A DNA stretch of 40,323 bases from positions 1-40,323 of the IMG/VR virus record IMGVR_UViG_650377933_000001. The stretch is one strand, 5' to 3'. The translations under genes were made by a program, and so were the position numbers. Under the pieces are notes generated by a model that saw only the letters and a program-made list of their open reading frames with translations, made no database searches and had not been told where the DNA came from. This DNA comes from a virus. Lineage: Duplodnaviria > Heunggongvirae > Uroviricota > Caudoviricetes. Below, one piece after another: positions 1,757-24,421 of this stretch (positions are counted from its first letter, which is position 1; the number at the start of each line of letters is the position of its first letter).

Positions 1757-1915
1757 TTGGTGTTCTTTCAGTTCTTCAATTCGAATATTGGTTACGTCTG
1801 CATGTGCTATCTGCGCCCACAGCATCCAGTGGTCATAGCAGTCGTTGATGTTCTCTGCTTCGATAACTCTGTTGAATGGTTCTCCATTCCATTCACCTGT
1901 GACTCGGAAGTGCAT
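1748..1915 (-). CDS. Small hypothetical protein (55 aa, MHFRVTGEWNGEPF...)
   Basis: ORF below the 60-aa track cutoff, found by manual translation; GGAG 8 nt upstream of ATG; stop codon lies in the terminator loop. Confidence 0.4.
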   Translation of the reverse strand: MHFRVTGEWNGEPFNRVIEAENINDCYDHWMLWAQIAHADVTNIRIEELKEHQAA

Positions 1916-1987
1916 TTATCATCTCCATAAAACAAAACTCGCCGTAGCGAGTTCAGATAAAAGAAATCCCCGCGAGTTCGAGGATTG

Positions 1988-2272
1988 TTATTCATTGCCG
2001 ATATTCACCTTTATCGCGAACACCTTTACCGGTTTATCACCGAAGTGCGGATGTGTGATTGTCTTGATTTCATATCCGTCATACGGGACGTCAATTCTGC
2101 GGCAGGAATCGTCGCGCTTCGGATATCCCTTTGTGATAATCAGGCGGTCATACTCCCGGAACATAATTCGCTTATTCCAGTAGTCATTACACAGGCGATA
2201 CTCTTCCGTTTTCTCGCCTGACTTCATCTGGTCGAAATATTCACCTTTGACGGCAAGTTGCAGGTTAGCCAT
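1988..2272 (-). CDS. Hypothetical protein, ASCH-like (94 aa from MANLQL start)
   Basis: ORF-track translation; start chosen at ATG with GGAGGTG RBS that overlaps the upstream stop (TAATG). ASCH-like call is from memory of similar prophage proteins. Confidence 0.5.
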   Translation of the reverse strand: MANLQLAVKGEYFDQMKSGEKTEEYRLCNDYWNKRIMFREYDRLIITKGYPKRDDSCRRIDVPYDGYEIKTITHPHFGDKPVKVFAIKVNIGNE

Positions 2273-2532
2273 TACCGCACCTCCAGTCTCCATACCGCCT
2301 GACCAATCCGGCTGGCATAGGTATCTTTGGATACTGCTCCGTCTTTAGCCAGCTCCATAAGAATTTTGCGCAAATCTGCCGAACGCCATTCTTCATCAGG
2401 AAATTCCTTCTCCATTGCCAACCGCAGATTCCAGGTTGCCATCCTGAATGGATATTCCCCGCCGAGAGCTTTATCTTGCAGGGCAGCCCGGGAACGCATC
2501 ACCTGCAAAATCTTCTCTTTGACATCCATCAT
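2272..2532 (-). CDS. Hypothetical protein (86 aa)
   Basis: ORF with GAGG RBS; start ATG overlaps the stop of the upstream gene (ATGA). Confidence 0.5.
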   Translation of the reverse strand: MMDVKEKILQVMRSRAALQDKALGGEYPFRMATWNLRLAMEKEFPDEEWRSADLRKILMELAKDGAVSKDTYASRIGQAVWRLEVR

Positions 2533-3167
2533 TTTGCCTCCTGAGGCGGTTCCGGTAGAGGCATCCAGAACAAGGCGTTCCCTAACCACGATAAAGTGCC
2601 GTCGCTCAACTCCACGTATTCCTCTTGTACCTGTCCTGCCATATACTCGCCGTGCTTTGAATAAATTAAAATCCAGTCATCTTGAGCGGGCATTCGCTCA
2701 CTACAGCTTATCCAACCATCCGGAGTTACCGGAGCGTTGCCACCGGGAATATTTTCCGGAATATTTTGTTGTGCGTTTTGTGGTTGTTCGGATTTACCCT
2801 GAAGCATGGCGGCGCGGCAGGCGTTCCAGCCAGCTGTTCGCCCAAGCGCGTAAACTTCAGATGGCTCAAGATAATCAATGTCATGCCCATCCTCATCGTC
2901 GTTCTCAGGTAATGCAGCAGGTACTACCGGTACTGGCGGAGCGGCGTAGACTTCAATAATCCCATTATCAATAGGCCATTCCCCATCCTTGATGTAGTCA
3001 CTTGTGCCGTCAACTTGCTGTTCTGCAATGTGGAATGCACCAACTGGCTCTGCCTCAAGCGAGGCCAGTGCAATTCGTGCCAGTTCCATTTGTTCGCCAC
3101 GGGTAAGCCCGTTTTCAAGCGGGGATTTAATGAACAATTCGATACGTTCTTTAGTGATAGTGCTCAT
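2529..3167 (-). CDS. Hypothetical phage protein with DUF551-like C-terminus (212 aa)
   Basis: Start taken at MSTITKERIE, 1 nt after the upstream stop; C-terminal ...DGTLSWLGNALFWMPLPEPP resembles the DUF551 region as I recall it. Confidence 0.55.
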   Translation of the reverse strand: MSTITKERIELFIKSPLENGLTRGEQMELARIALASLEAEPVGAFHIAEQQVDGTSDYIKDGEWPIDNGIIEVYAAPPVPVVPAALPENDDEDGHDIDYLEPSEVYALGRTAGWNACRAAMLQGKSEQPQNAQQNIPENIPGGNAPVTPDGWISCSERMPAQDDWILIYSKHGEYMAGQVQEEYVELSDGTLSWLGNALFWMPLPEPPQEAK

Positions 3168-3168
3168 A

Positions 3169-3771
3169 TCACTCTCCTTTGATGCGAATGCCAGCGGCGC
3201 GGATAGATTTCCATTGTTTCCACATTCGGTTGAAGTCTGTGCCTGATAAGGTTGCGTTACGGTATCCAGTTTCGGTGCGCAATCCTTCAAGCGTCGATTT
3301 GGAGATACAAATTGAATGCATTACCCATGATTCAAACAAATCACGCTCACGGGCTTCGCAACTTTGCTTACTCATCTCTTCGATACGTTCAGCCATCGCA
3401 GCACACTCTTCAAAGTTGCTTAATGCATTTCGCTCCCATTCGGCGCATTGTTTTCCAAGCTCTGCAATCAGCTTGTCTTTGCCTTCCAGCTCAACACGCA
3501 GCTTCCCTACCGTTAACGCAATATCCTCGTTCTCCTGGTCGCGGCGTTTGATGTACTGCTGGTTTCTTTCCCGTTCATCCAGTAGTGCCAGCACGGTTTC
3601 TGGTCCGGCCAGAAATTTGAAGGCGTTGAGCGCATCAATATCCACACCGTAATCTTTAAGTTCCTGTTCACTTAACAAATCATCATCAGCTGGCAACATT
3701 AACAGGCGTTCCATCGCTGGAATTGCACGTTCCGCCGCCTCACGCAGTGCCTGATAGTTAATTTGGGTCAC
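3169..3771 (-). CDS. Ead/Ea22-like coiled-coil protein (200 aa)
   Basis: ORF-track translation; GTG start overlapping the upstream stop (GTGA) with GGAGG upstream; acidic coiled-coil character typical of Ea22-like proteins. Confidence 0.55.
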   Translation of the reverse strand: MTQINYQALREAAERAIPAMERLLMLPADDDLLSEQELKDYGVDIDALNAFKFLAGPETVLALLDERERNQQYIKRRDQENEDIALTVGKLRVELEGKDKLIAELGKQCAEWERNALSNFEECAAMAERIEEMSKQSCEARERDLFESWVMHSICISKSTLEGLRTETGYRNATLSGTDFNRMWKQWKSIRAAGIRIKGE

Positions 3772-3992
3772 TCTTCATCCTCCAAGTCGGCAACGGCGTC
3801 CATCACATCAGAACCGCGAATAACCTCAAAAGCACGGCAGGCCATTTGAAATACCAGTTGCTCTTGCGGATGCGGTGATTCCCAATATTTGAATCCAGGG
3901 CGATGCGCGTACCCCATCATTGAATAAAAATCACCAGCAAGCTTAATCGCGGCATCAACAAGCTCTCTGTTAGTCATTCTTTTTCCGCTCAC
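3768..3992 (-). CDS. Hypothetical protein (about 74 aa, GTG start)
   Basis: AGGAGG RBS 6 nt upstream of a GTG that overlaps the upstream stop (GTGA). Confidence 0.45.
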
Positions 3993-4156
3993 TGGTTGCC
4001 TCCTTTGCGCCACATCGCATTCAGATATTTGTTTTGATTTACTGATGGAAAAGAATTTCTCTTAAGCAATTCCTCTCTCGATGGCATTGGCTTTACGCGT
4101 TGGCGAATAATCATTTCTGCCGGAAGAATGCCGGGATTGTATGCAAGTCCTCTCAT
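3989..4156 (-). CDS. Small hypothetical protein (55 aa, MRGLAYNPG...)
   Basis: GAGGAA RBS 7 nt upstream of ATG; stop coupled to the downstream GTG start. The longer 106-aa track ORF overlaps abc2 and is not favoured. Confidence 0.3.
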
Positions 4157-4166
4157 GGTAAATTCC

Positions 4167-4463
4167 TCAGTCATTACTGATAGCGCCATAGCGTGATCGA
4201 TAATTACGCAGGCGCGGGTCGATATATTCAGGGAAGTGGGTATATGTGGCTTTGCGGAATGGTCGGATTGATGTCTGGTAAATTCGCTCGCGCTCTTCTT
4301 TCTCTGCAAGCCATATACAGTGGCGAAATTCCTTTTCCTCTTTTGTTTCCTGCGGTAGCGACATTATCCGGTCGTAGTTTTTTCTGAATTTATCCAGCAC
4401 CTCCGATACGGAATTGCCGGAACAGCGGCGCGGGTCATCCGCACCATACAGAGGCGCTGGCAT
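4167..4463 (-). CDS. abc2: Anti-RecBCD protein Abc2
   Basis: 98-aa translation [31 protein letters not shown]... matches my recollection of P22 Abc2; located next to erf as in P22. Confidence 0.65.
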
Positions 4464-4486
4464 AATGGAATCCTTATTTTTCTAAA

Positions 4487-4870
4487 TCAGAATGGGATGG
4501 AATCGTCGTATACAGGAGTGTTCTGCTGGTTACTACTTTGCTGCTGCGGGCCATTTCCTGAAGCTGCAAATCCAATCTTTGCATTCAGTAATTCAAGAGT
4601 GATTGATTGACCATTTTGCCCCTGATAAACATCAACCCTGATGTTTTCTCCGGTAATTTCCACAATGCCACCTTCAACAAGAACACTACGGTAGTAATCC
4701 GCTTGCGCTCCCGGCTTGGCAAATACAACGGCGCTGTAGTTTGTCCATTCTTTCTTTTTTGTCTGGCGATCGTAATACTGAACTCCAGCACGGATGTTGA
4801 ATCCGATATTTTCCCCGGCCTGAAACTCTCTTGCGGGCTTGTTTAGTCTTACAGTAATCGAATGTGCCAT
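4487..4870 (-). CDS. ssb: Single-stranded DNA-binding protein (phage SSB)
   Basis: Start MAHSITVRLN overlaps the erf stop (TAATG); C-terminal acidic tail ...PVYDDSIPF is the hallmark SSB tail; Gly/Gln-rich linker. Confidence 0.75.
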   Translation of the reverse strand: MAHSITVRLNKPAREFQAGENIGFNIRAGVQYYDRQTKKKEWTNYSAVVFAKPGAQADYYRSVLVEGGIVEITGENIRVDVYQGQNGQSITLELLNAKIGFAASGNGPQQQSSNQQNTPVYDDSIPF

Positions 4871-5475
4871 TAAGCAGCCGCTCCTTCTAATTCGTCTCGT
4901 CTGATGTTGTAAACGTCCTGCGCTTTGTGCTGCTCCGGTGTGCCTTCGAGCATCTTCCACGCTTTGGCGAACGCCTGTTTAAGCTCTTCCACGGTGTTTT
5001 TCTGCAATGCTGCGTCAGTGAATGCTTTTAGAACCTGTTCAGGTGTAGGTGATGGTTTTGATTGCTTTGCTGCTGCGTTCTGCTGATGTTTATGCTCGTC
5101 GGTATCTGCATCTTTCGCATCATCAATGCCGAACAAACCATTGAGGCAATACTTGCGTGCATAAGAGCTTGTGGCTCCCGTAACTTGTGCAGAATCCATT
5201 CCTTTCTTGCTTTCTTCCTCTCGTGCAAGAGCGGTTGCCGTATGACTGTTTTCGCCATCGGTAATAGTTGCCGTGGCTTTCACGTAATACCGATCACCAA
5301 TCAACACAACTTCATCGCTGATTGATAAAAACAGGCCATTAAGCAGCGGCTTAACGCCTTCAAGAATATCTTCGCAGCTTCTGTATTTATATTTACCGAA
5401 TGAGTTGTACTGATTCTTTGGCGCGTTCAGATTCTCCTGAATAGCTGCCAGTCTTGCGTAAAATTCTTTGCTCAT
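4870..5475 (-). CDS. erf: Erf-family single-strand annealing recombinase
   Basis: Translation from MSKEFYARLAAIQENLNAPKNQYNSFGKYKYRSCEDILEGVKPLL matches recalled P22 Erf; the longer track ORF has an unsupported N-terminal extension. Confidence 0.85.
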   Translation of the reverse strand: MSKEFYARLAAIQENLNAPKNQYNSFGKYKYRSCEDILEGVKPLLNGLFLSISDEVVLIGDRYYVKATATITDGENSHTATALAREEESKKGMDSAQVTGATSSYARKYCLNGLFGIDDAKDADTDEHKHQQNAAAKQSKPSPTPEQVLKAFTDAALQKNTVEELKQAFAKAWKMLEGTPEQHKAQDVYNIRRDELEGAAA

Positions 5476-16848: not shown

Positions 16849-17468
16849 GACTCGAAAGCGTAGCTAAATTTCATTCGCCAAAAAGCCCGATGATGAGCGA
16901 CTCACCACGGGCTACGGCTTCTGACTCTCTTTCCGGTACTGATGTGATGGCTGCTATGGGGATGGCGCAATCACAAGCCGGATTCGGTATGGCTGCATTC
17001 TGCGGCAAGCATGAACTCAGCCAGAACGACAAACAAAAGGCTATCAACTATCTGATGCAATTTGCACACAAGGTATCGGGGAAATACCGTGGCGTTGCAA
17101 AGCTTGAAGGAAATACTAAGGCAAAGGTACTGCAAGTGCTCGCAACATTCGCTTATGCGGATTATTGCCGTAGTGCCGCGACGCCGGGCGCAAGATGCAG
17201 AGATTGCCACGGTACAGGCCGTGCGGTTGATATAGCCAAAACAGAGCAGTGGGGGAGAGTTGTTGAGAAAGAGTGCGGAAGATGCAAAGGTGTCGGCTAT
17301 TCAAGAATGCCAGCAAGCGCCGCATATCGCGCTGTAACGATGCTAATCCCAAACCTTACTCAACCCACCTGGTCACGCACTGTTAAGCCGCTGTATGACG
17401 CTCTGGTGGTGCAATGCCACAAAGAAGAGTCAATCGCAGACAACATTTTGAATGCGGTCACACGTTAA
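16845..17468 (+). CDS. Q: Late-gene antiterminator Q (lambda type)
   Basis: 207 aa, matching recalled lambda Q throughout, including the zinc-binding CRDCHGTG...CGRCKG; directly upstream of pR'. Confidence 0.85.
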   Translation: MRLESVAKFHSPKSPMMSDSPRATASDSLSGTDVMAAMGMAQSQAGFGMAAFCGKHELSQNDKQKAINYLMQFAHKVSGKYRGVAKLEGNTKAKVLQVLATFAYADYCRSAATPGARCRDCHGTGRAVDIAKTEQWGRVVEKECGRCKGVGYSRMPASAAYRAVTMLIPNLTQPTWSRTVKPLYDALVVQCHKEESIADNILNAVTR

Positions 17469-17510
17469 CAGCATGATTGCCACGGATGGCAACATATTAA
17501 CGGCATGATA

Positions 17511-17539
17511 TTGACTTTTTGAATAAAGTTGGGTAAATT
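17511..17539 (+). promoter_or_regulatory. Late promoter pR'
   Basis: -35 TTGACT (17511-17516), 17-nt spacer, -10 TAAATT (17534-17539); context matches recalled lambda pR'/qut. Confidence 0.6.
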
Positions 17540-17574
17540 TGACCAAACGATGGATAAATGCACTCGTTAAATAA

Positions 17575-17604
17575 AGCCCTGAGTTAATAGCTCGGGGCTT
17601 TTTG
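17575..17604 (+). terminator. tR' terminator (Q-antiterminated; end of the 6S-like leader RNA)
   Basis: AGCCCTGAG-loop-CTCGGGGCT (one G-U pair) followed by TTTTT, ~40-50 nt downstream of pR'. Confidence 0.6.
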
Positions 17605-17901
17605 CGTTTTAATCACGACCTTTCTGAAAGCACATCAACCCAAATACCAGACAGACAAAAATAATCACCTTATCCGCTGTGGCTACGGTGCGGTGTGCTT
17701 TGCATAAAAGAAAACCAGCGTAATGGCTGGCTTCGTGAAAGCGGGTGGCGTGAGGTTGCGCTAACAACCTCCTGCCGTTTTGCCCGTGCATATCGGTCAC
17801 GAACAAATCTGATTACTAAACACAGTAGCCTGGATTTGTTCTATCAGTAATCGACCTTATTCCTAATTAAATAGAGCAAATCCCCTTATTGGGGGTAAGA
17901 C

Positions 17902-18225
17902 ATGAAGATGCCAGAAAAACATGACCTGTTAGCCGCCATTCTCGCGGCAAAGGAACAAGGCATCGGGGCAATACTTGCGTTTGCAATGGCGTACCTTCGC
18001 GGCAGATATAATGGCGGTGCGTTTACAAAAACAGTAATCGACGCAACGATGTGCGCCATTATCGCCTGGTTCATTCGTGACCTTCTCGACTTCGCCGGAC
18101 TAAGTAGCAATCTCGCTTATATAACGAGCGTGTTCATCGGCTACATCGGTACTGACTCGATTGGTTCGCTTATCAAACGCTTCGCTGCTAAAAAAGCCGG
18201 AGTAGAAGATGGTGGAAATCAATAA
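17902..18225 (+). CDS. S: Holin S (lambda type, dual-start)
   Basis: 107-aa translation [39 protein letters not shown]... matches recalled lambda S, with Met1 and Met3 dual start. Confidence 0.9.
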
Positions 18226-18685
18226 TCAACGTAAGGCGTTCCTCGATATGCTGGCGTGGTCAGAGGGAACTGATAACGGACGTCAGAAAACCAGAAATCA
18301 TGGTTATGACGTCATTGTAGGCGGAGAGCTATTTACCGATTACTCCGATCACCCTCGCAAACTTGTCACGCTAAACCCAAAACTCAAATCAACAGCAGCA
18401 GGACGTTACCAGCTTCTTTCCCGTTGGTGGGATGCATACCGTAAGCAGCTTGGGCTGAAAGACTTCTCTCCGAAAAGCCAGGACGCTGTTGCACTACAGC
18501 AGATTAAAGAGCGTGGCGCTTTACCGATGATTGATCGCGGTGATATTCGTCAGGCTATCGACCGTTGCAGCAATATCTGGGCTTCACTGCCGGGCGCTGG
18601 TTATGGTCAGTTCGAGCATAAGGCTGACAGCCTGATTGTAAAATTCAAAGAAGCAGGCGGAACGGTCAGAGAGATTGAGGTATGA
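18209..18685 (+). CDS. R: Endolysin R (lytic transglycosylase)
   Basis: 158-aa translation [42 protein letters not shown]... matches recalled lambda R. Confidence 0.9.
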
Positions 18686-19149
18686 GCAGAGTAACCGCGA
18701 TTATCTCCGCTCTGGTTATCTGCATCATCGTCTGCCTGTCATGGGCTGTTAATCATTACCGTGATAACGCCATCGCCTACAAAGAACAGCGAGATAAAAA
18801 AGTCAGTGAGCTGAAGCAGGCGACCGCCACCATTACTGACATGCAGCAGCGCCAGCGTTCTGCTGATGCACTCGATGCTAAATACACGAAGGAGTTAGCT
18901 GATGCGAAAGCTGAAAATGATGCTCTTCGGCGCAAGCTTGATAATGGTGGTCGGGTGTTCGTCAAAGGAAAATGCCCTGTGCCATCCTCAGCCGAAACCT
19001 CCAGCACCTCCGGCATGGGCAATGATGCCACCGTCGAACTCTCTCCAGTTGCTGGACGAAACGTTCTCGGTATCCGGGACGGAATCATCAGCGACCAAAC
19101 AGCACTGAGAACGCTTCAGGAATACATCAGGACGCAATGCCTTCGATGA
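18682..19149 (+). CDS. Rz: Rz inner-membrane spanin
   Basis: 155 aa with N-terminal TM segment and coiled-coil periplasmic domain; follows R as in lambda. Confidence 0.85.
18902..19108 (+). CDS. Rz1: Rz1 outer-membrane lipoprotein spanin (embedded in Rz, +1 frame)
   Basis: ORF inside Rz in another frame; signal peptide with lipobox ...MVVGCSS, Pro-rich mature part ([11 protein letters not shown]). Confidence 0.7.
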
Positions 19150-19304
19150 TAGCGATAATTTTACTCATCATCCTTCACATCTGGCTCTGTAGACAGGGTG
19201 GTGATCGCTTCTGGAGTGAATCCAGATTAAACATCTCATTGCTGATGCTTGATATTGAGCATCTGGCGCGCGGTAAGGGGCTGCGTTGAGATAAGAGCCA
19301 GTTC

Positions 19305-19339
19305 ATTACAAAGCCTATCTACGGGTGGGCTTGATAATG
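19305..19339. repeat. Copy 1 of a ~37-bp stem-loop motif upstream of the 19528-19908 gene
   Basis: ATTACAAAGCCTATCTACGGGTGGGCTTGATAATG; AAGCC...GGCTT can pair. Confidence 0.5.
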
Positions 19340-19527
19340 AAACCGGAATTTATTCTGGGTAACCAGTTACGGCAGTACAGCGAAACAACCCAAGCCAGTA
19401 AGTGGGGAAATAACACTGGCAGCCACTGAAAGATGAACCTCCTGCCTTATGGCAAAAAAGATTCTTTGTGGTGGCGGACTGATGGAAAGACATCCTAATC
19501 AAGCAACCACTCTACAGGGTCATAATT

Positions 19528-19908
19528 ATGAACGACCAGCAAATCGAAAAAGAAATCGTTGAGAAAGGCAAAACCGCTCCGCGAGTTACCCCGCAGCACA
19601 TCGAAGACGTGATTAAAAGCGAGCATTACTTTACTGCTTATGATGGACGAAATGGTGCCATTTCCAGCAACGAATATTGTGGCAGGGAAAAACCAGAAGA
19701 AGGCGATCGTGATTTATCACCATTGAAGCTGCTCACTTTCTGCGTACTGGTGCTGAAGAATGGCTTCACCGTCACCGGAGAGAGTGCCTGTGCAAGCCCG
19801 GAAAACTTTGATGCAGAAATTGGTCGGAAGATTGCCCGGCAAAATGCTGTAAACAAAATCTGGATGCTCGAAGGTTACTTGCTGAAGCAGAAGCTAAGCG
19901 AACAGTAG
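19528..19908 (+). CDS. Hypothetical protein (126 aa)
   Basis: Intact ORF between the lysis cassette and small terminase, flanked by the two motif copies. Possible resemblance to Gp49-type phage proteins is from memory only. Confidence 0.45.
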   Translation: MNDQQIEKEIVEKGKTAPRVTPQHIEDVIKSEHYFTAYDGRNGAISSNEYCGREKPEEGDRDLSPLKLLTFCVLVLKNGFTVTGESACASPENFDAEIGRKIARQNAVNKIWMLEGYLLKQKLSEQ

Positions 19909-19910
19909 TT

Positions 19911-19949
19911 ATTACAAAAGCCATTCCCTACAGAGTGGCTTTGATAATG
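19911..19949. repeat. Copy 2 of the same motif, immediately downstream of the 19528-19908 gene
   Basis: ATTACAAAAGCCATTCCCTACAGAGTGGCTTTGATAATG; 7-bp stem AAAGCCA/TGGCTTT; shares ATTACAAA..GCC..CTAC.G.GTGGCTT.GATAATG with copy 1. Confidence 0.5.
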
Positions 19950-19999
19950 GCTTATACCCTACACGGGATAACTTAACTGATATCCCTTTTAACGGATAA

Positions 20000-20254
20000 A
20001 TGGAGCCAACAATGGCAGAGATTATTCCCATGACTGAAGAACAGAAATTCCAGTTAGAGATTTACAAGCTGGTCATGAACCAGAACGCAGCCGCAGAGGA
20101 AGCATTTCAATTTATTGGCACTGACGAGCTGAAGCTTGAGCTATTCAAAATTCACTTCCAGTCAGGCGGCGCTAATTCAGATATCACGACCCGCACTATC
20201 GAAGCGGTGCGTAAATCGAAGGAAGCGTTAGACCTGTTCACCACCGGAGCATGA
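20000..20254 (+). CDS. Hypothetical protein (84 aa)
   Basis: Intact ORF upstream of small terminase; start may be the internal MAEIIPM. Confidence 0.4.
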   Translation: MEPTMAEIIPMTEEQKFQLEIYKLVMNQNAAAEEAFQFIGTDELKLELFKIHFQSGGANSDITTRTIEAVRKSKEALDLFTTGA

Positions 20255-20283
20255 TGCTCAACCTGAAATAACAACTAAGTGAG

Positions 20284-20778
20284 ATGAATATGGCAGCACC
20301 AAAGGGCAACCGATTTTGGGAGGCCCGCAGTAGTCATGGGCGAAATCCTAAATTCGAATCGCCTGAGGCGCTGTGGGCTGCTTGTTGTGAATACTTCGAG
20401 TGGGCTGATGATAACCCGCTATGGGAGGGTAAGGTATTTTCATATCAGGGAGAAATAATTAAGGCTAATGTCCCTAAGATGCGAGCCATGACTATTTCAG
20501 GATTGTGTACCTTCCTTGATATCACCAGGCAAACATGGGGAACCTTCCGGTCAATGGAAGGTTTTTCTGACGTCACATCACGAGCGGAAGACATCATCTA
20601 CGACCAGAAATTCTCTGGCGCAGCCGCTGACCTTCTCAACGCTAACATCATCGCCCGTGATTTGGGCCTCAAAGAGCAGTCGCAAGTTGAAGACGTGACA
20701 CCTGATAAGGGAGATCGCGATAAGCGGCGCTCTCGTATCAAGGAGCTATTCAACCGTGGAACTGGACGCGATTCTTGA
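20284..20778 (+). CDS. Terminase small subunit
   Basis: 164 aa beginning M(N)[22 protein letters not shown]..., immediately upstream of and overlapping the large terminase; basic/acidic C-terminus. Confidence 0.65.
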
Positions 20779-22255
20779 TAACCTGAGCGACGAAGAGCAA
20801 ATCGAATTGCTCGAGCTACTCGAAGAAGAAGAGAACTACCGTAACACACATCTGCTATATGAATTTACGCCATACAGCAAACAGCGTGAGTTCATCGACG
20901 CCGGGCATGACTATCCAGAGCGATGTTTTATGGCTGGTAACCAGCTTGGTAAGTCATTTACTGGTGCTGCTGAAGTCGCGTTTCACCTTACCGGGCGTTA
21001 CCCGGGCACAAAAGGCTATCCTGCTGATGGTAAATATGGCGGTGAGTGGAAAGGTAAGCGTTTCTATGAGCCTGTTGTCTTCTGGATTGGCGGCGAGACA
21101 AACGAGACGGTAACCAAAACGACTCAACGCATCCTGTGCGGTCGTATCGAAGAGAATGATGAGCCTGGCTACGGTTCCATACCGAAAGAAGACATCATTA
21201 GCTGGAAGAAGTCTCCTTTCTTTCCGAACCTTGTTGATCATCTTCTGGTTAAGCATCACACGGCTGATGGCGTTGAAGATGGAATTTCAATCTGCTACTT
21301 CAAACCATACTCGCAAGGCCGTGCTCGCTGGCAGGGTGACACAATCCACGGCGTGTGGTTTGACGAAGAACCACCATACAGCATTTATGGTGAAGGCCTT
21401 ACCCGTACCAACAAATACGGGCAATTCTCAATTCTGACGTTTACCCCGCTGATGGGGATGTCTGACGTTGTTACCAAGTTCCTGAAGAATCCCAGCAAGT
21501 CGCAGAAAGTGGTCAACATGACCATCTATGACGCTGAGCACTACACAGACGAACAGAAAGAGCAAATCATCGCATCCTATCCCGAGCATGAGAGAGAGGC
21601 GCGTGCTCGCGGTATTCCTACGATGGGTAGTGGTCGAATCTTCCAGATACCGGAAGAGACGATTAAGTGTCAGCCGTTCGAGTGTCCTGATCACTTCTAC
21701 GTAATTGGCGGGATGGATTTCGGATGGGATCACCCGCAGGCGCAGGTTCAGCTTTGGTGGGATAAGGACGCAGACACAATCTACGTTTCACGCGTGTGGA
21801 AGGCGAAAGAAAAAACAGCGGTTCAGGCATGGGGAGCTGTTAAATCATGGGCGCATAAAGTGCCAACCGCATGGCCTCATGACGGAAACCAGCATGAGAA
21901 GGGCGGCGGTGAGCAGCTCAAAGGGCAGTATGCAGACGCTGGATTTATGATGTTACAGGAGCATGCAACATGGCCTGATGGAGGTAATGCTGTTGAGCCT
22001 GGCATCACTGAATTGCGCGACATGATGCTCGATGGTCGCTTCAAAGTATTCAACACCTGTGAGCCATTCTTTGAGGAGTTCCGCCTCTATCACCGTGATG
22101 AAAACGGGAAAATCGTCAAGCTTAACGACGACGTTCTCTCAGCCGTTCGCTATGCATACATGATGCGCCGCTTTGCCAAAATGATGCGCGATATCAAAAA
22201 ACCAAAAGAGAAAAAGATACCAGCCCCAATCAGGCCCATCGCACGGAGAACTTAA
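20756..22255 (+). CDS. Terminase large subunit
   Basis: 499 aa with ATPase Walker A-like GNQLGKS and a C-terminal nuclease domain; follows the small subunit and precedes portal. Confidence 0.9.
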
Positions 22256-24421
22256 ATGGCCGACGAAAACAGACTCAATTCCATTCTGTGCAAGTTTGAC
22301 GCGGACTGGATGGCGAGCGATGAAGCCAGAACCGAGGCGACAAATGACCTGTATTTTAGCCGAGTGTCGCAATGGGATGACTGGCTATCAAACTACACCA
22401 CCCTGCAATATCGCGGACAATTCGATGTTGTTCGCCCGGTGGTCAGGAAACTGGTCGCAGAGATGCGTCGGAACCCTATCGACGTTCTATTCAGACCCAA
22501 AGACGGCGCTAATCCTGATGCAGCCGATGTGTTGATGGGGATGTATCGTACTGATATGCGCCATAACACGGCAAAGATTGCCGTTAACGTTGGCGTTCGT
22601 GAGCAGATAGAGTCCGGCGTTGGTGCATGGCGCCTGGTCACACAGTACGAAGACAACGACCCAACAAGCAACAATCAGGTAATTCGACGCCTGCCAATTC
22701 ATGAAGCCTGCTCACACGTCATATGGGACGCCAACAGCAAGCAGATGGATAAGAGCGACGCTAAGCACTGCACGGTGATTAACGCCTTGTCGCGCAATGG
22801 CTGGAAAGAGTTCGCAGAGGATTACGGTATTGATCCTGACACCCTGCCATCTTTCCAGAATCCGAACGACACATGGCTGTTTCCGTGGGTATCGAATGAT
22901 GTCGTCTACGTCGCTGAGTATTACGAGGTAGAAGAGAAGAAGGAGAAAGTCTTCATCTACCGCGACCCGTTGACAGGTGAGCCAGTCAGCTATTACCAGC
23001 AGGATATTAAAGACGTTATCGACGACCTGGCTAATCGTGGATTCATTAAGGTAGCAGAGCGCAAGGTGAAGCGTCGTCGTGTGTATAAGTCGATCATCAC
23101 CTGCACGCAGATACTGAAGGACCGAGAAAAGATAGCCGGAGAGCATATCCCAATCGTTCCAGTGTATGGAGAATGGTCATTCGCTGGTGACAAGGAGTGC
23201 TACGAGGGAGTGGTAAGGCTGACGAAAGACGGTCAACGCCTTCGTAACATGATCATGTCGTTCAACGCCGATATTGTTGCTCGTTCACCGAAGAAGAAAC
23301 CGACCTTCTTCCCTGAGCAAATCGAAGGCTACGAATACATGTACGGTGGAAATGATGACTATCCGTACTATCTGCAGAACAGGACCGATGAAAACGGTAA
23401 CGACCTGCCGATTGGTCCAATCTCCTACATGGAAAACCCTGAAGTGCCGCAAGCCAACGCTTACATGCTTGAGGCTGCCACCAACGCAGTGAAAGAGGTG
23501 GCTAGTCTTGGTGTGGATGCGCAGGCAGCAAACTCTCAGGTCGCTTTCGATACCGTCAATCAACTGAACATGCGGGCAGACCTTGAGACATACGTGTTTC
23601 AGGATAACCTGGCTACCGCAATGCGACGTGATGGCGAGATTTATGCCTCAATGGTCAACGATATTTATGACGTTCCTCGTCATGTAACGCTGACACTTGA
23701 AGATGGTAGCGAGAAAGACGTTCAACTCTACGCGCAAGTTGTAGATTACCAGTCCGGTAATGTGGTCACACTCAACGACATTCGCGGTCGCTATGAGTGC
23801 TATACAGACGTTGGACCATCCTTCCAGAGTATGAAGGAACAGAACCGCGCAGAGATTCAGGAGTTACTCACCAAGGTTCCGCAAGGTACTCCAGAGTTCC
23901 AGATGCTGATGCTGCAATACTTCACGCTGCTTGACGGTAAAGGCGTTGAGATGATGCGAGAGTACGCGAACAAGCAACTGGTGATGATGGGGCTGAAGAA
24001 ACCAGAAACACCTGAAGAGATGGAGATGGTACAGCAGGCACAACAACAGCCGCAGCAGCCATCAGCAGAGCAAATTCAGGCGCAGGGTATCCTTCTGCAA
24101 GGTCAGGCTGAATTGCTCAAGGCAGAGAACCAACAGGCGCAGATTCAGGTTGAAGCTGCCAAGGTTGAAGCCCAAAACCAACTCAACGCCGCGAAGATTG
24201 CAGAAATCTTCAACAATATGGACCTCGACAAGCAGGCAGAGCTGCGTGAGTACCTCAAGCTCGTAGGTCAATTCCAGCAACAGCGCAGCAAAGATGCTCG
24301 TGCTAACGCTGAGCTGCTTCTTAAAGATGCAGACCAGACTCATTCACAACGCATGGATTTCGCGAATCTTATGCGTCAAGTTCAAATCCCCTCCGGCGGA
24401 GTAGCCGAGACACCTCAATAA
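22256..24421 (+). CDS. Portal protein (P22 gp1 type)
   Basis: 721-aa translation [43 protein letters not shown]... closely matches recalled P22 portal along its length, including the Gln-rich C-terminal barrel. Confidence 0.95.

What the first reader, a model, noticed from the sequence alone, without database searches (positions are those of the whole stretch)
19305..19949. Duplicated ~37-bp stem-loop motif bracketing a 126-aa gene downstream of the lysis cassette
Two copies (19305-19339 and 19911-19949) share ATTACAAA..GCC..CTAC.G.GTGGCTT.GATAATG. Each can form a hairpin (AAGCC/GGCTT; AAAGCCA/TGGCTTT) whose loop differs in length while stem pairing is preserved, suggesting a selected structure rather than chance. 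They flank the 19528-19908 ORF, the pattern expected for boundary sequences of an inserted moron, or for a repeated regulatory RNA element or protein-binding site.
Basis: seen in the sequence. Interest (0 to 1): 0.55.

Follow-up and report, generated by a model that had tools for sequence, protein, structure and literature searches.

The report
Conserved hairpin after phage accessory genes
The two look-alike sequences are real copies of a widespread folded RNA hairpin that sits right after accessory genes in the late operon of lambda-like phages and marks where those genes get swapped between phages; its molecular job is still unknown.

Summary
Copies at 19304-19339 and 19910-19949 of this Sf6/P22-like phage are the only two members in the window of one hairpin family (65.6 and 62.6 bits; next best 12.7).

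All members share one architecture:
- a 5-8 bp AU-rich foot (AUUA/UAAU);
- an invariant 2x2 internal loop (CA opposite GA);
- a 9-10 bp upper stem with a conserved U.G wobble;
- a variable loop.

Across Escherichia, Salmonella, Klebsiella, Citrobacter, Yersinia, Pantoea, Providencia, Tatumella and Symbiopectobacterium phages, 94% of cells stay paired and 13 of 16 pairs show compensatory changes. The sense strand folds better in 29 of 34 variants.

The hairpin follows stop codons of at least six unrelated accessory-gene families by 2-3 nt, has no U-tract, and matches no Rfam family. Homology breakpoints between phages pile up at its feet.

It is not an insertion scar of the 126-aa gene. Genomes lacking that gene still carry both hairpins, 195 nt apart, and the gene's left boundary is at 19494/19495.

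Best reading: an intercistronic late-mRNA structure, probably a processing or stability element read through its internal loop, that also serves as the homology patch for cassette exchange. The function is inferred, not shown.

The parts
19304..19339 (+). Hairpin copy 1 (type A). Foot C19304-A19308 pairs with U19335-G19339. Internal loop C19309 A19310 opposite G19333 A19334. Upper stem 19311-19319 pairs with 19324-19332. Loop UACG 19320-19323. Weaker pairing extends the stem to about 19298-19346.
   Evidence: Sequence. Fold -22.6 kcal/mol, z -4.73. Model hit 65.6 bits. Covariation.
19907..19952 (+). Hairpin copy 2 (type B). Foot 19907-19914 pairs with 19945-19952, and its first two bases are the AG of the gp66 UAG stop codon. 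Internal loop C19915 A19916 opposite G19943 A19944. Upper stem 19917-19926 pairs with 19933-19942. Loop CCUACA 19927-19932.
   Evidence: Sequence. Fold -20.6 kcal/mol, z -4.99. Model hit 62.6 bits. Allelic to type C at the same position in HK620, epsilon34, HK97 and ST64T, with compensatory changes.
19137..19289 (+). 50-aa ORF (Sf6 gene 65 homologue) overlapping the end of Rz. Its stop codon lies 15 nt before the ATTA of copy 1.
   Evidence: ORF list. Sf6 annotation. PHROG 11822, function unknown. Census of upstream genes.
19362..19494 (+). Highly conserved non-coding block between copy 1 and the gp66 cassette. It is present whether or not gp66 is present, and in 'empty' genomes it runs straight into hairpin C.
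   Evidence: 94-100% identical in 44 variants, with single-base indels. HSP breakpoints at 19362-19369 and 19494. ST64T annotates it as the start of orf118, reading through hairpin C.
19495..19908 (+). The gp66 cassette: a 33-nt leader plus the 126-aa ORF 19528-19908 (Pfam PF13876, N4 Gp49 / Sf6 gene 66 family). It is inserted exactly at the 5' foot of the downstream hairpin.
   Evidence: Pfam E 6e-35. In loci without the gene, similarity stops at 19494 and resumes at 19908/19911. Alignment of 'empty' and filled sites.
19950..20011 (+). Conserved 3' flank of hairpins B and C, up to the start of DUF2560. It also travels with the hairpin in Stx2 phages that lack DUF2560. It holds a 9-codon mini-ORF (19947-19976) and a weak hairpin plus U4 (19965-19990).
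   Evidence: Alignment. Mini-ORF census. The weak hairpin is not in the minimum-energy fold.
20012..20254 (+). DUF2560 gene (Sf6 gene 67 / HK620 hkbM), followed by the small terminase gene at 20284.
   Evidence: Pfam PF10834 E 1e-43 and PF16677 for gp3. Sf6 and HK620 annotation.

Best explanation
The two sequences are members of a conserved family of stem-loops that form in the sense-strand RNA of the late operon of lambdoid phages of Enterobacterales.

Each hairpin begins at or within a few bases of the stop codon of an accessory ('moron-like') gene, and is followed by the leader or ribosome-binding site of the next gene. The stems may change freely as long as they pair. The 2x2 CA/GA internal loop, the AU-rich foot and a U.G wobble near the apex are held constant.

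This pattern points to a specific factor, most likely a host ribonuclease or RNA-binding protein, that reads the hairpin. I take it to be an intercistronic mRNA processing or 3'-end-protecting element that sets the stability of the accessory-gene segment within the long antiterminated late transcript.

The hairpin is the only sequence shared by otherwise unrelated cassettes. It therefore also acts as the patch of homology at which gene-plus-hairpin cassettes are exchanged, deleted and inserted.

Shown here: the existence of the family, its structure, covariation, strand, position and coincidence with junctions. Inferred: action at the RNA level, and the processing or stability role.
For: Structure and selection:
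- 32 local variants are 92% paired, against 31-48% when partners are slid.
- 18 representatives from 9 genera are 94% paired, with 13 of 16 pairs changed on both sides. No shuffle out of 500 reached the observed value on any of the five measures. Slid controls gave 35-47%.
- Alleles B and C at the same locus differ by three or four compensatory pairs.

Strand:
- The U.G wobble at one stem position is kept in 27/32 and 16/18 sequences.
- The + strand folds better in 29 of 34 unique variants (-15.5 versus -11.7 kcal/mol).
- Every strong model hit is co-directional with the late genes.

Position:
- Stop codons of at least six unrelated protein families end 2-3 nt before ATTA.
- In Pantoea, Providencia and Yersinia the hairpin is followed by a Shine-Dalgarno sequence and the start of the next gene.

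Not a terminator: there is no U-tract and the terminator scan is silent at both sites.

Same niche as terminators: the alternative allele at the copy-1 site is a canonical terminator. gp49 homologues outside Enterobacterales are often followed by canonical terminators.

Junctions:
- Breakpoints pile up at the hairpin feet.
- Hybrid hairpins exist with a type A stem and a type C right flank, in an Stx2 phage and L044.

Spread: 146 and 31 phage records carry the two types, and 1239 of 5426 complete E. coli genomes carry the region.
Against: - No transcript, cleavage or binding data were available, so RNA-level action rests on G.U pairs, strand and position only. G.T wobbles also form in single-stranded DNA.
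- With the short foot seen in many copies, the helix is only 14-16 bp plus the internal loop, which is short for a classical RNase III substrate.
- The hairpin is melted whenever a ribosome terminates at the adjacent stop codon. That complicates a simple 3'-protection model.
- Some natural variants weaken the foot (ATTCCA, ATCACA).
- No candidate binding protein is consistently encoded nearby.
Confidence: 0.5

Rival explanations
1. DNA-level cassette-exchange signal. The hairpin folds in single-stranded DNA and is cut and joined by a phage or host recombinase at its conserved foot, in the manner of integron attC sites or IS200/IS605 and REP/RAYT hairpins.
For: - Junctions fall at the 5' foot or inside the 5' arm (19304, 19312, 19908).
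- Inserts at the copy-1 site are flanked by CATTACAAA on the left and a full hairpin on the right.
- A/C hybrid hairpins exist.
- The unit that moves is a gene plus a 3' hairpin: 27 of 27 for gp66, also in mEpX1, Ss-VASD and a Klebsiella phage.
- The foot and internal-loop sequence is invariant while the stems vary.
Against: - No recombinase gene is consistently linked.
- Other junctions nearby do not use the hairpin (19362-19369, 19494, and the epsilon34 right junction).
- G.U pairs are conserved, and the element always lies on the mRNA sense strand.
- No attC-type core sequences are present.
- General homologous recombination (Red/Erf-type) on 35-100 bp of shared sequence explains the junctions without a dedicated enzyme. 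That last point is inference.
Confidence: 0.12
2. A degenerate or specialised transcription terminator that ends accessory-gene transcripts in the lysogen and is read through by Q-modified polymerase during lytic growth.
For: - It occupies the place where relatives have canonical terminators.
- The record for phage Ayreon annotates it as 'terminator'.
- It is a stable GC-rich upper stem.
Against: - The stem is followed by GAUAAUGAAAC or GAUAAUGGCUUAU, not a U-run, and the scan finds no terminator there.
- An AU-rich foot and an internal loop separate the GC stem from downstream sequence.
- In L007, L046 and L051 a canonical terminator lies immediately upstream of the hairpin, which would make the hairpin redundant.
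Confidence: 0.1
3. A translational-coupling device. The 3' arm hides a purine-rich Shine-Dalgarno-like stretch and the AUG of GAUAAUG, and ribosomes terminating at the adjacent stop codon open the hairpin and start a downstream reading frame.
For: - The stop codon abuts the 5' foot.
- An AUG lies in the 3' foot, with GRGUGG or GAGGGG about 8 nt upstream.
Against: - Reading frames from that AUG are 3, 4, 9, 20, 21 or 30 codons long and are frameshifted between close relatives.
- Providencia and Tatumella copies have no AUG there (AAUU, UUGUGA).
- In Pantoea, Providencia and Yersinia the next gene has its own Shine-Dalgarno sequence and start codon after the hairpin.
Confidence: 0.04
4. Chance similarity, or a neutral palindromic remnant with no function.
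For: No function has been demonstrated. Some copies are weakened (the HK97 type A copy has two broken pairs).
Against: - Zero matches in shuffled sequence.
- Model E-values near 1e-13.
- Compensatory changes in 13 of 16 pairs across nine genera.
- Persistence in about 23% of complete E. coli genomes.
Confidence: 0.02

Closest known systems
Intercistronic mRNA hairpins of lytic phages: T7 RNase III processing sites and the C(UUCG)G hairpins between T4 genes (from my own knowledge of the literature)
   Same: - Stable stem-loops lie between co-directional genes of a long phage transcript and occur several times per genome.
- The upper stem, internal loop and lower stem geometry resembles T7 sites.
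- Copy 1 has a C(UACG)G tetraloop of the UNCG class.
   Different: - No cleavage has been shown.
- The helix is shorter than typical RNase III substrates.
- There is no sequence resemblance.
- These hairpins sit at the ends of exchangeable accessory genes in temperate lambdoid phages.
Moron terminators (a promoter-gene-terminator unit; defined for HK97/HK022; review PMC3594210)
   Same: - A stem-loop lies at the 3' end of accessory genes added to a lambdoid late operon.
- The hairpin marks cassette ends.
- Relatives have true terminators in the same slot.
   Different: - There is no U-tract.
- It has a conserved internal loop and foot sequence.
- It is found even where no gene precedes it (type C in 'empty' sites).
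REP/BIME elements of E. coli
   Same: - Imperfect palindromes of about 35-40 nt lie in transcribed intergenic DNA just after stop codons.
- REPs are thought to stabilise upstream mRNA.
- REPs are hot spots for rearrangement.
   Different: - The sequence is unrelated.
- There are only 1-3 places per genome, and all copies inspected in context lie in prophage late regions.
- No associated RAYT transposase is present.
Integron attC sites
   Same: - One structured imperfect palindrome follows each cassette gene.
- Structure is conserved more than sequence, and the centre varies in length.
- Insertion occurs at one foot.
   Different: - There are no R/L core sites and no integron integrase or attI.
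- The functional strand is the sense strand and has G.U pairs.
- Exchange is probably by general homologous recombination.
'Boundary sequences' (bsq) of lambdoid phages, annotated in the Sf6 GenBank record
   Same: Short sequences conserved between otherwise different lambdoid genomes, lying at module junctions.
   Different: - The Sf6 record marks bsq7 inside gene 63, but marks neither hairpin.
- A bsq is defined by sequence, whereas these are defined by a covarying structure.

Membership tests
Intrinsic (Rho-independent) terminator | GC-rich stem-loop | tested here: met
   The upper stem has 9-10 bp. The whole hairpins fold at -20.6 to -22.6 kcal/mol.
Intrinsic (Rho-independent) terminator | Run of U immediately 3' of the stem | tested here: not met
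   The 3' flanks are GAUAAUGAAACCGG and GAUAAUGGCUUAUACC. The scan reports no terminator-like site at either copy.
Integron attC | Conserved inverse core sites (GTTRRRY and its complement) at the two feet | tested here: not met
   The feet are YATTACA and GAYAATG in all types.
Integron attC | Adjacent integron integrase and attI | not tested
   The ORFs listed over 17000-22500 are lysis, gp65, gp66, DUF2560, terminase and portal genes. No dedicated search for an integron integrase was run.
REP/BIME | Hundreds of copies dispersed in host intergenic regions, with the REP consensus | tested here: not met
   There are 1-3 places per E. coli genome (median 1). Every copy inspected in context lies in a prophage late region (for example). 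The sequence is unrelated to the REP consensus (from memory).
RNase III processing site | About two turns of coaxial double-stranded RNA, often with an internal loop at the cleavage site | tested here: inconclusive
   The window copies have 8+10 or 7+9 bp around a 2x2 loop. Many relatives have only a 5-bp foot.
RNase III processing site | Cleavage by RNase III in vivo or in vitro | not testable with these tools
   No transcript-end data were available. The published in-vivo motif is in a figure that is not held.
Any curated RNA family (Rfam 15) | Match to a covariance model | tested here: not met
   No hit at either hairpin at E up to 10. The only hit in 19285-20015 is a chance-level Proteo-phage-1 match at 19389-19424 (16.8 bits against a gathering score of 42).
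Lambdoid boundary sequence | Short conserved sequence at junctions between non-homologous modules | tested here: met
   Similarity breakpoints lie at 19303/19304, 19312, 19352 and 19908/19911 across 90 loci. The same hairpin follows unrelated genes.
Conserved structured RNA motif | Base pairs maintained by compensatory substitutions beyond controls | tested here: met
   13 of 16 pairs changed on both sides and 94% of cells paired. No shuffle out of 500 matched on any measure. Slid controls gave 35-47%.

The most novel reading that the evidence does not exclude
The hairpin is the recognition signal of a so-far unrecognised gene-cassette system in lambdoid phages. In this reading a gene-plus-hairpin unit is inserted at the 5' foot of a resident hairpin by a dedicated factor that reads the invariant CA/GA loop and AU foot. 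The factor could be a nuclease, a recombinase acting on folded single strands, or an RNA-guided step. This would be an integron-like cassette mechanism without an integron integrase. Alternatively, the hairpin could be the operator of an unknown RNA-binding regulator that controls all accessory genes of the late operon together.
Probability: 0.1. Interest if true: 0.85.

Novelty: new member of a known kind. Interest (0 to 1): 0.45.

Why it matters
The region between the lysis and packaging genes of lambdoid phages is a hot spot for accessory genes, including Rha and KilA-N proteins, nucleases, Gp49-like proteins and candidate anti-defence genes. It occurs in about a quarter of complete E. coli genomes.

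A covarying hairpin with an invariant internal loop at the end of these cassettes offers three things:
- a concrete, testable handle on how such genes are expressed within the late transcript;
- a handle on how they are shuffled between phages with different packaging modules (P22-like, HK97-like and Stx phages);
- a practical annotation marker for cassette ends, and a correction for mis-called 'terminators' and over-extended ORFs such as ST64T orf118.

Tried and rejected
- **Other copies in the window.** The full covariance-model scan found only the two. The 12.7-bit hit at 4165-4213 lies inside early-region ORFs and is taken as chance.
- **Rfam.** Two searches found nothing relevant.
- **Promoter.** There is no sigma-70-like site at or between the hairpins. 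By eye, the GATAAT in the foot has no -35 partner at a workable spacing.
- **Coding or uORF role for the foot AUG.** Rejected, because the frames are short and shift between relatives.
- **Attenuator made of the mini-ORF plus the GGGAUA..UAUCCC-U4 hairpin at 19965-19990.** That hairpin is not in the minimum-energy fold, so the idea is unsupported.
- **Read-through of the gp66 UAG into the hairpin ending at UGAUAA.** The frame works for type B only, not for type A, so this was dropped (checked by hand).
- **Known prophage sRNAs.** Pas, AgvB and AsxR lie elsewhere (between Q and the holin gene, or near stx) and have Rfam models that did not match.
- **Structure in the conserved block 19362-19494.** There was no covariation to judge, because the block is nearly invariant.
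- **Literature.** Searches for boundary sequences, P22-like intergenic stem-loops, RNase III in lambdoid late operons and moron terminators found no description of this hairpin.
- **Scoring against the published RNase III in-vivo motif.** Not possible, because the motif is in a figure.

Full report
**Setting.** The window is an Sf6/P22-like (Lederbergvirus) phage genome. The relevant genes, from the ORF list and family searches and the GenBank records of Sf6, HK620, epsilon34 and Huey, are:

| Coordinates | Gene |
|---|---|
| 17902-18225 | holin |
| 18209-18685 | endolysin |
| 18682-19149 | Rz, with embedded Rz1 |
| 19137-19289 | 50-aa ORF (Sf6 gene 65) |
| 19528-19908 | 126-aa ORF (Pfam PF13876, N4 Gp49 / Sf6 gene 66 family) |
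| 20012-20254 | DUF2560 gene |
| 20284-20778 | small terminase gp3 |
| 20756-22255 | large terminase |
| from 22256 | portal |

All lie on the + strand, in the late operon.

- The gapped motif never occurs in shuffled copies of the window.
- Each site folds on the + strand into a two-part hairpin, at -22.6 and -20.6 kcal/mol with z-scores near -5. The reverse strand folds worse.
- The anatomy is a foot helix (AUUA/UAAU plus flanking pairs), a 2x2 internal loop with CA facing GA, an upper stem of 9 or 10 bp, and a loop of UACG or CCUACA.
- In copy 2 the foot includes the last two bases of the UAG stop codon of the 126-aa gene.
- A covariance model built from relatives finds these two sites at 65.6 and 62.6 bits and nothing else in the 40 kb above 12.7 bits.

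**It is a family under selection for structure.** I fetched 80 viral contigs through the DUF2560 gene and regions from GenBank phages. The hairpin occurs there in four sequence types:

| Type | Upper stem 5' arm / loop / 3' arm | Where |
|---|---|---|
| A | AAGCCYAUC / UACG / GGUGGGCUU | copy 1 in the window |
| B | AAAGCCAUUC / CCUACA / GAGUGGCUUU | copy 2 in the window |
| C | GAGRCCAUUC / AAU / GAGUGGUCUC | same position as B, upstream of DUF2560 |
| D | GGAGCUCUUC / AAU / GAGGGGCUUC | L032 |

- Types B and C are alleles of one site and differ by three compensatory pairs in the upper stem and one in the foot.
- On 32 distinct local variants, 92% of cells pair, against 31-48% when partners are slid.
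- I then fetched Gp49/66 homologues from one genome per bacterial species. The model found diverged hairpins only in Enterobacterales prophages: Providencia, Pantoea (two copies), Yersinia, Citrobacter, Symbiopectobacterium and Tatumella.
- On an 18-sequence alignment spanning nine genera, 94% of cells pair and 13 of 16 pairs show changes on both sides. No shuffle out of 500 reached the observed value on any of the five measures. Slid controls gave 35-47%.
- The CA/GA internal loop is invariant in that alignment, apart from a foot-adjacent A-to-C change in the Rha-type, Klebsiella and Symbiopectobacterium copies that enlarges the loop. A U.G wobble three pairs from the apex is kept in 16 of 18 sequences.

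**Strand.**
- G.U pairs make up about 13% of pairs.
- The + strand folds better in 29 of 34 unique variants (mean -15.5 versus -11.7 kcal/mol).
- Every strong hit is co-directional with the surrounding late genes.
- This favours an RNA structure in the late mRNA. G.T wobbles in single-stranded DNA cannot be excluded.

**Where it sits.**
- The hairpin follows the stop codon of the upstream gene by 2-3 nt in at least six unrelated protein families: Gp66 (27 of 27), a Rha-like protein (14 of 14), hkbL-like proteins, and proteins of 95, 62 and 94 aa. Other families stop 10-65 nt upstream.
- In the other genera it starts 0-4 nt after the stop codon. In Pantoea, Providencia and Yersinia it is followed within about 10-15 nt by a Shine-Dalgarno sequence and the next start codon.
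- It is therefore an intercistronic element.
- In one Pantoea prophage a copy lies between the Q gene and the holin gene, so the element belongs to the late operon rather than to the lysis-terminase gap as such.

**Distribution.**
- Type A is in 146 GenBank phage records and type B in 31. These include P22-like phages, HK97, HK022, ES18, the mEp phages, Stx1 and Stx2 phages, and Klebsiella and Enterobacter phages.
- The copy-1 region is in 1239 of 5426 complete E. coli genomes, at 1-3 places each. NCBI annotates no RNA there.
- One phage record calls it a terminator.
- Rfam has nothing.
- My literature searches found no description.

**Relation to the 126-aa gene.**
- Aligned against 90 related loci, similarity to the window starts at 19303/19304 (41 alignments) and 19908/19911 (56). 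It ends at 19312 (36), 19352 (24) and 19494/19495 (54).
- Loci that lack the gene break at 19494 and resume at 19908. The cassette is therefore 19495-19908: a 33-nt leader plus the ORF. It is inserted exactly at the 5' foot of the downstream hairpin.
- Its left edge is 155 nt from copy 1.
- 'Empty' genomes (L037, L078), and also HK97, HK022 and ST64T, still have a type A and a type C hairpin 195 nt apart. The same conserved non-coding block lies between them.
- The pair is therefore part of the backbone and not a duplication made by the insertion.
- The hairpins are nevertheless real mosaic junctions:
  - Different cargo (Rha, KilA-N, GIY-YIG nuclease and others) lies immediately 5' of hairpin A.
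  - In many genomes the copy-1 site is broken after CATTACAAA and continues into a canonical terminator and foreign cargo.
  - An Stx2 phage and contig L044 carry a hybrid with a type A stem and a type C right flank. That is the product expected from recombination between the two copies.

**What it is not.**
- It is not an intrinsic terminator. There is no U-run, the scan is silent, and in some relatives a canonical terminator sits directly upstream of the hairpin.
- It is not a promoter.
- It is not the start of a gene. Frames opening at the AUG in the 3' foot are 3-30 codons long and frameshift between close relatives, and two genera lack that AUG.
- It is not a dispersed host repeat.

**How it most likely works.**
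- Free variation of both stems, with an invariant internal loop, foot and wobble, is the signature of a hairpin that is read by a specific factor.
- No phage gene is consistently adjacent across P22-like, HK97-like, Stx and other prophages. I therefore favour a host factor.
- Three lines of evidence make an intercistronic mRNA processing or 3'-end-protecting role the best-supported mechanism, at about 0.4-0.5 confidence:
  - its position at the 3' end of accessory cistrons in a long antiterminated transcript;
  - its interchangeability with true terminators at the same slot;
  - the canonical terminators that follow roughly 18 of the 80 Gp49 homologues fetched from other taxa.
- RNase III is the obvious candidate, given the geometry of upper stem, internal loop and lower stem. 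However, many copies have only 14-16 bp, and I could not score them against the published in-vivo motif.
- Its role as an exchange point follows from its being the only conserved sequence among variable cassettes. General recombination on 35-100 bp of homology is enough to explain this (inference).
- The main rival is a dedicated DNA-level cassette signal. It fits the precision of the junctions, but it lacks a recombinase and does not explain the sense-strand G.U bias.

**Verdict.** This is a real, conserved, covariation-supported hairpin family that appears to be undescribed. It marks the 3' ends of accessory-gene cassettes in lambdoid late operons. It is a new member of a known kind (intercistronic phage mRNA hairpins and moron-end stem-loops), with an unusually well-defined conserved internal loop. 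Its biochemical function remains to be shown.

Noticed in passing
window 19362-19494 (most conserved part 19405-19494): A non-coding block between hairpin A and the gp66 cassette is 94-100% identical in 44 variants and nearly invariant in its 3' two-thirds. Single-base indels (an A6/A7 run, an extra G) argue against coding. It can form a long hairpin (GCCACUGAAAGAU...AUUCUUUGUGGUGGC) with CCUCCU in the apical part. It is present in HK97, HK022, ST64T and P22-like phages whatever their neighbouring genes. Its function is unknown.
   Followed up: partly
L089 (ST64T) 1747-2103: ST64T orf118 is annotated as starting in that non-coding block and reading through hairpin C. A start at the later ATGGCAGAG, preceded by GGAG as for DUF2560, looks more likely, so the annotated N-terminus is probably not protein. 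The epsilon34 record repeats the 'N-terminus of orf118' label.
   Followed up: partly
L002 1676-1860, L003 1676-1862 and many IMG/VR loci (the site equivalent to window 19304): The alternative allele at the copy-1 site is CATTACAAA, then a canonical terminator (AGCCTCGCATTYGCGGGGCTTTTTT), then a conserved leader of about 150 nt with inverted repeats. This leader precedes quite different cargo genes (Rha-like, KilA-N, GIY-YIG nuclease, and proteins of 162 and 176 aa). The terminator stem resembles the type A upper stem (AGCC..11 nt..GGGCTT).
   Followed up: partly
window 19947-19990: A 9-codon mini-ORF (MAYTLHGIT) opens at the AUG in the foot of hairpins B and C and stops in the loop of a weak hairpin (GGGAUA...UAUCCC) followed by UUUU, upstream of DUF2560. 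The block is conserved, and it also travels with the hairpin in Stx2 phages that lack DUF2560. The weak hairpin is not in the minimum-energy fold.
   Followed up: partly
window 17573-17601: A strong terminator-like hairpin (13 pairs plus a U-run) lies upstream of the holin gene, with chance-level Rfam hits (NsiR1, isrJ). It is probably the tR' terminator of the short late leader transcript.
   Followed up: no
L004 (phage Huey) 1742-2242 and 2477-2857: The Huey record labels both the 166-aa cargo gene and the Gp66 homologue 'anti-CRISPR protein'. PHROGs and Pfam give no function for the window's Gp66 (phrog_322, PF13876). The basis of that label is unclear.
   Followed up: partly
L092 (Pantoea MAG) 1840-5340: In this prophage the Gp49-like gene and its hairpin lie between the Q antiterminator gene and the holin gene, not after Rz. 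A second hairpin follows a 173-aa gene downstream of a DUF2560-like gene.
   Followed up: partly
window 4165-4213: A weak covariance-model hit (12.7 bits, E 0.76; CATTACTGA...TCGATAAT) lies inside overlapping early-region ORFs. It is most likely chance.
   Followed up: partly
L085 (HK97) and L086 (HK022) about 1850-1960: After hairpin C, HK97 and HK022 carry a truncated DUF2560 start (ATGGCAGAGATTATTCT...) that then diverges. It looks like the remnant of a cassette exchange upstream of the HK97 gp74 gene.
   Followed up: no
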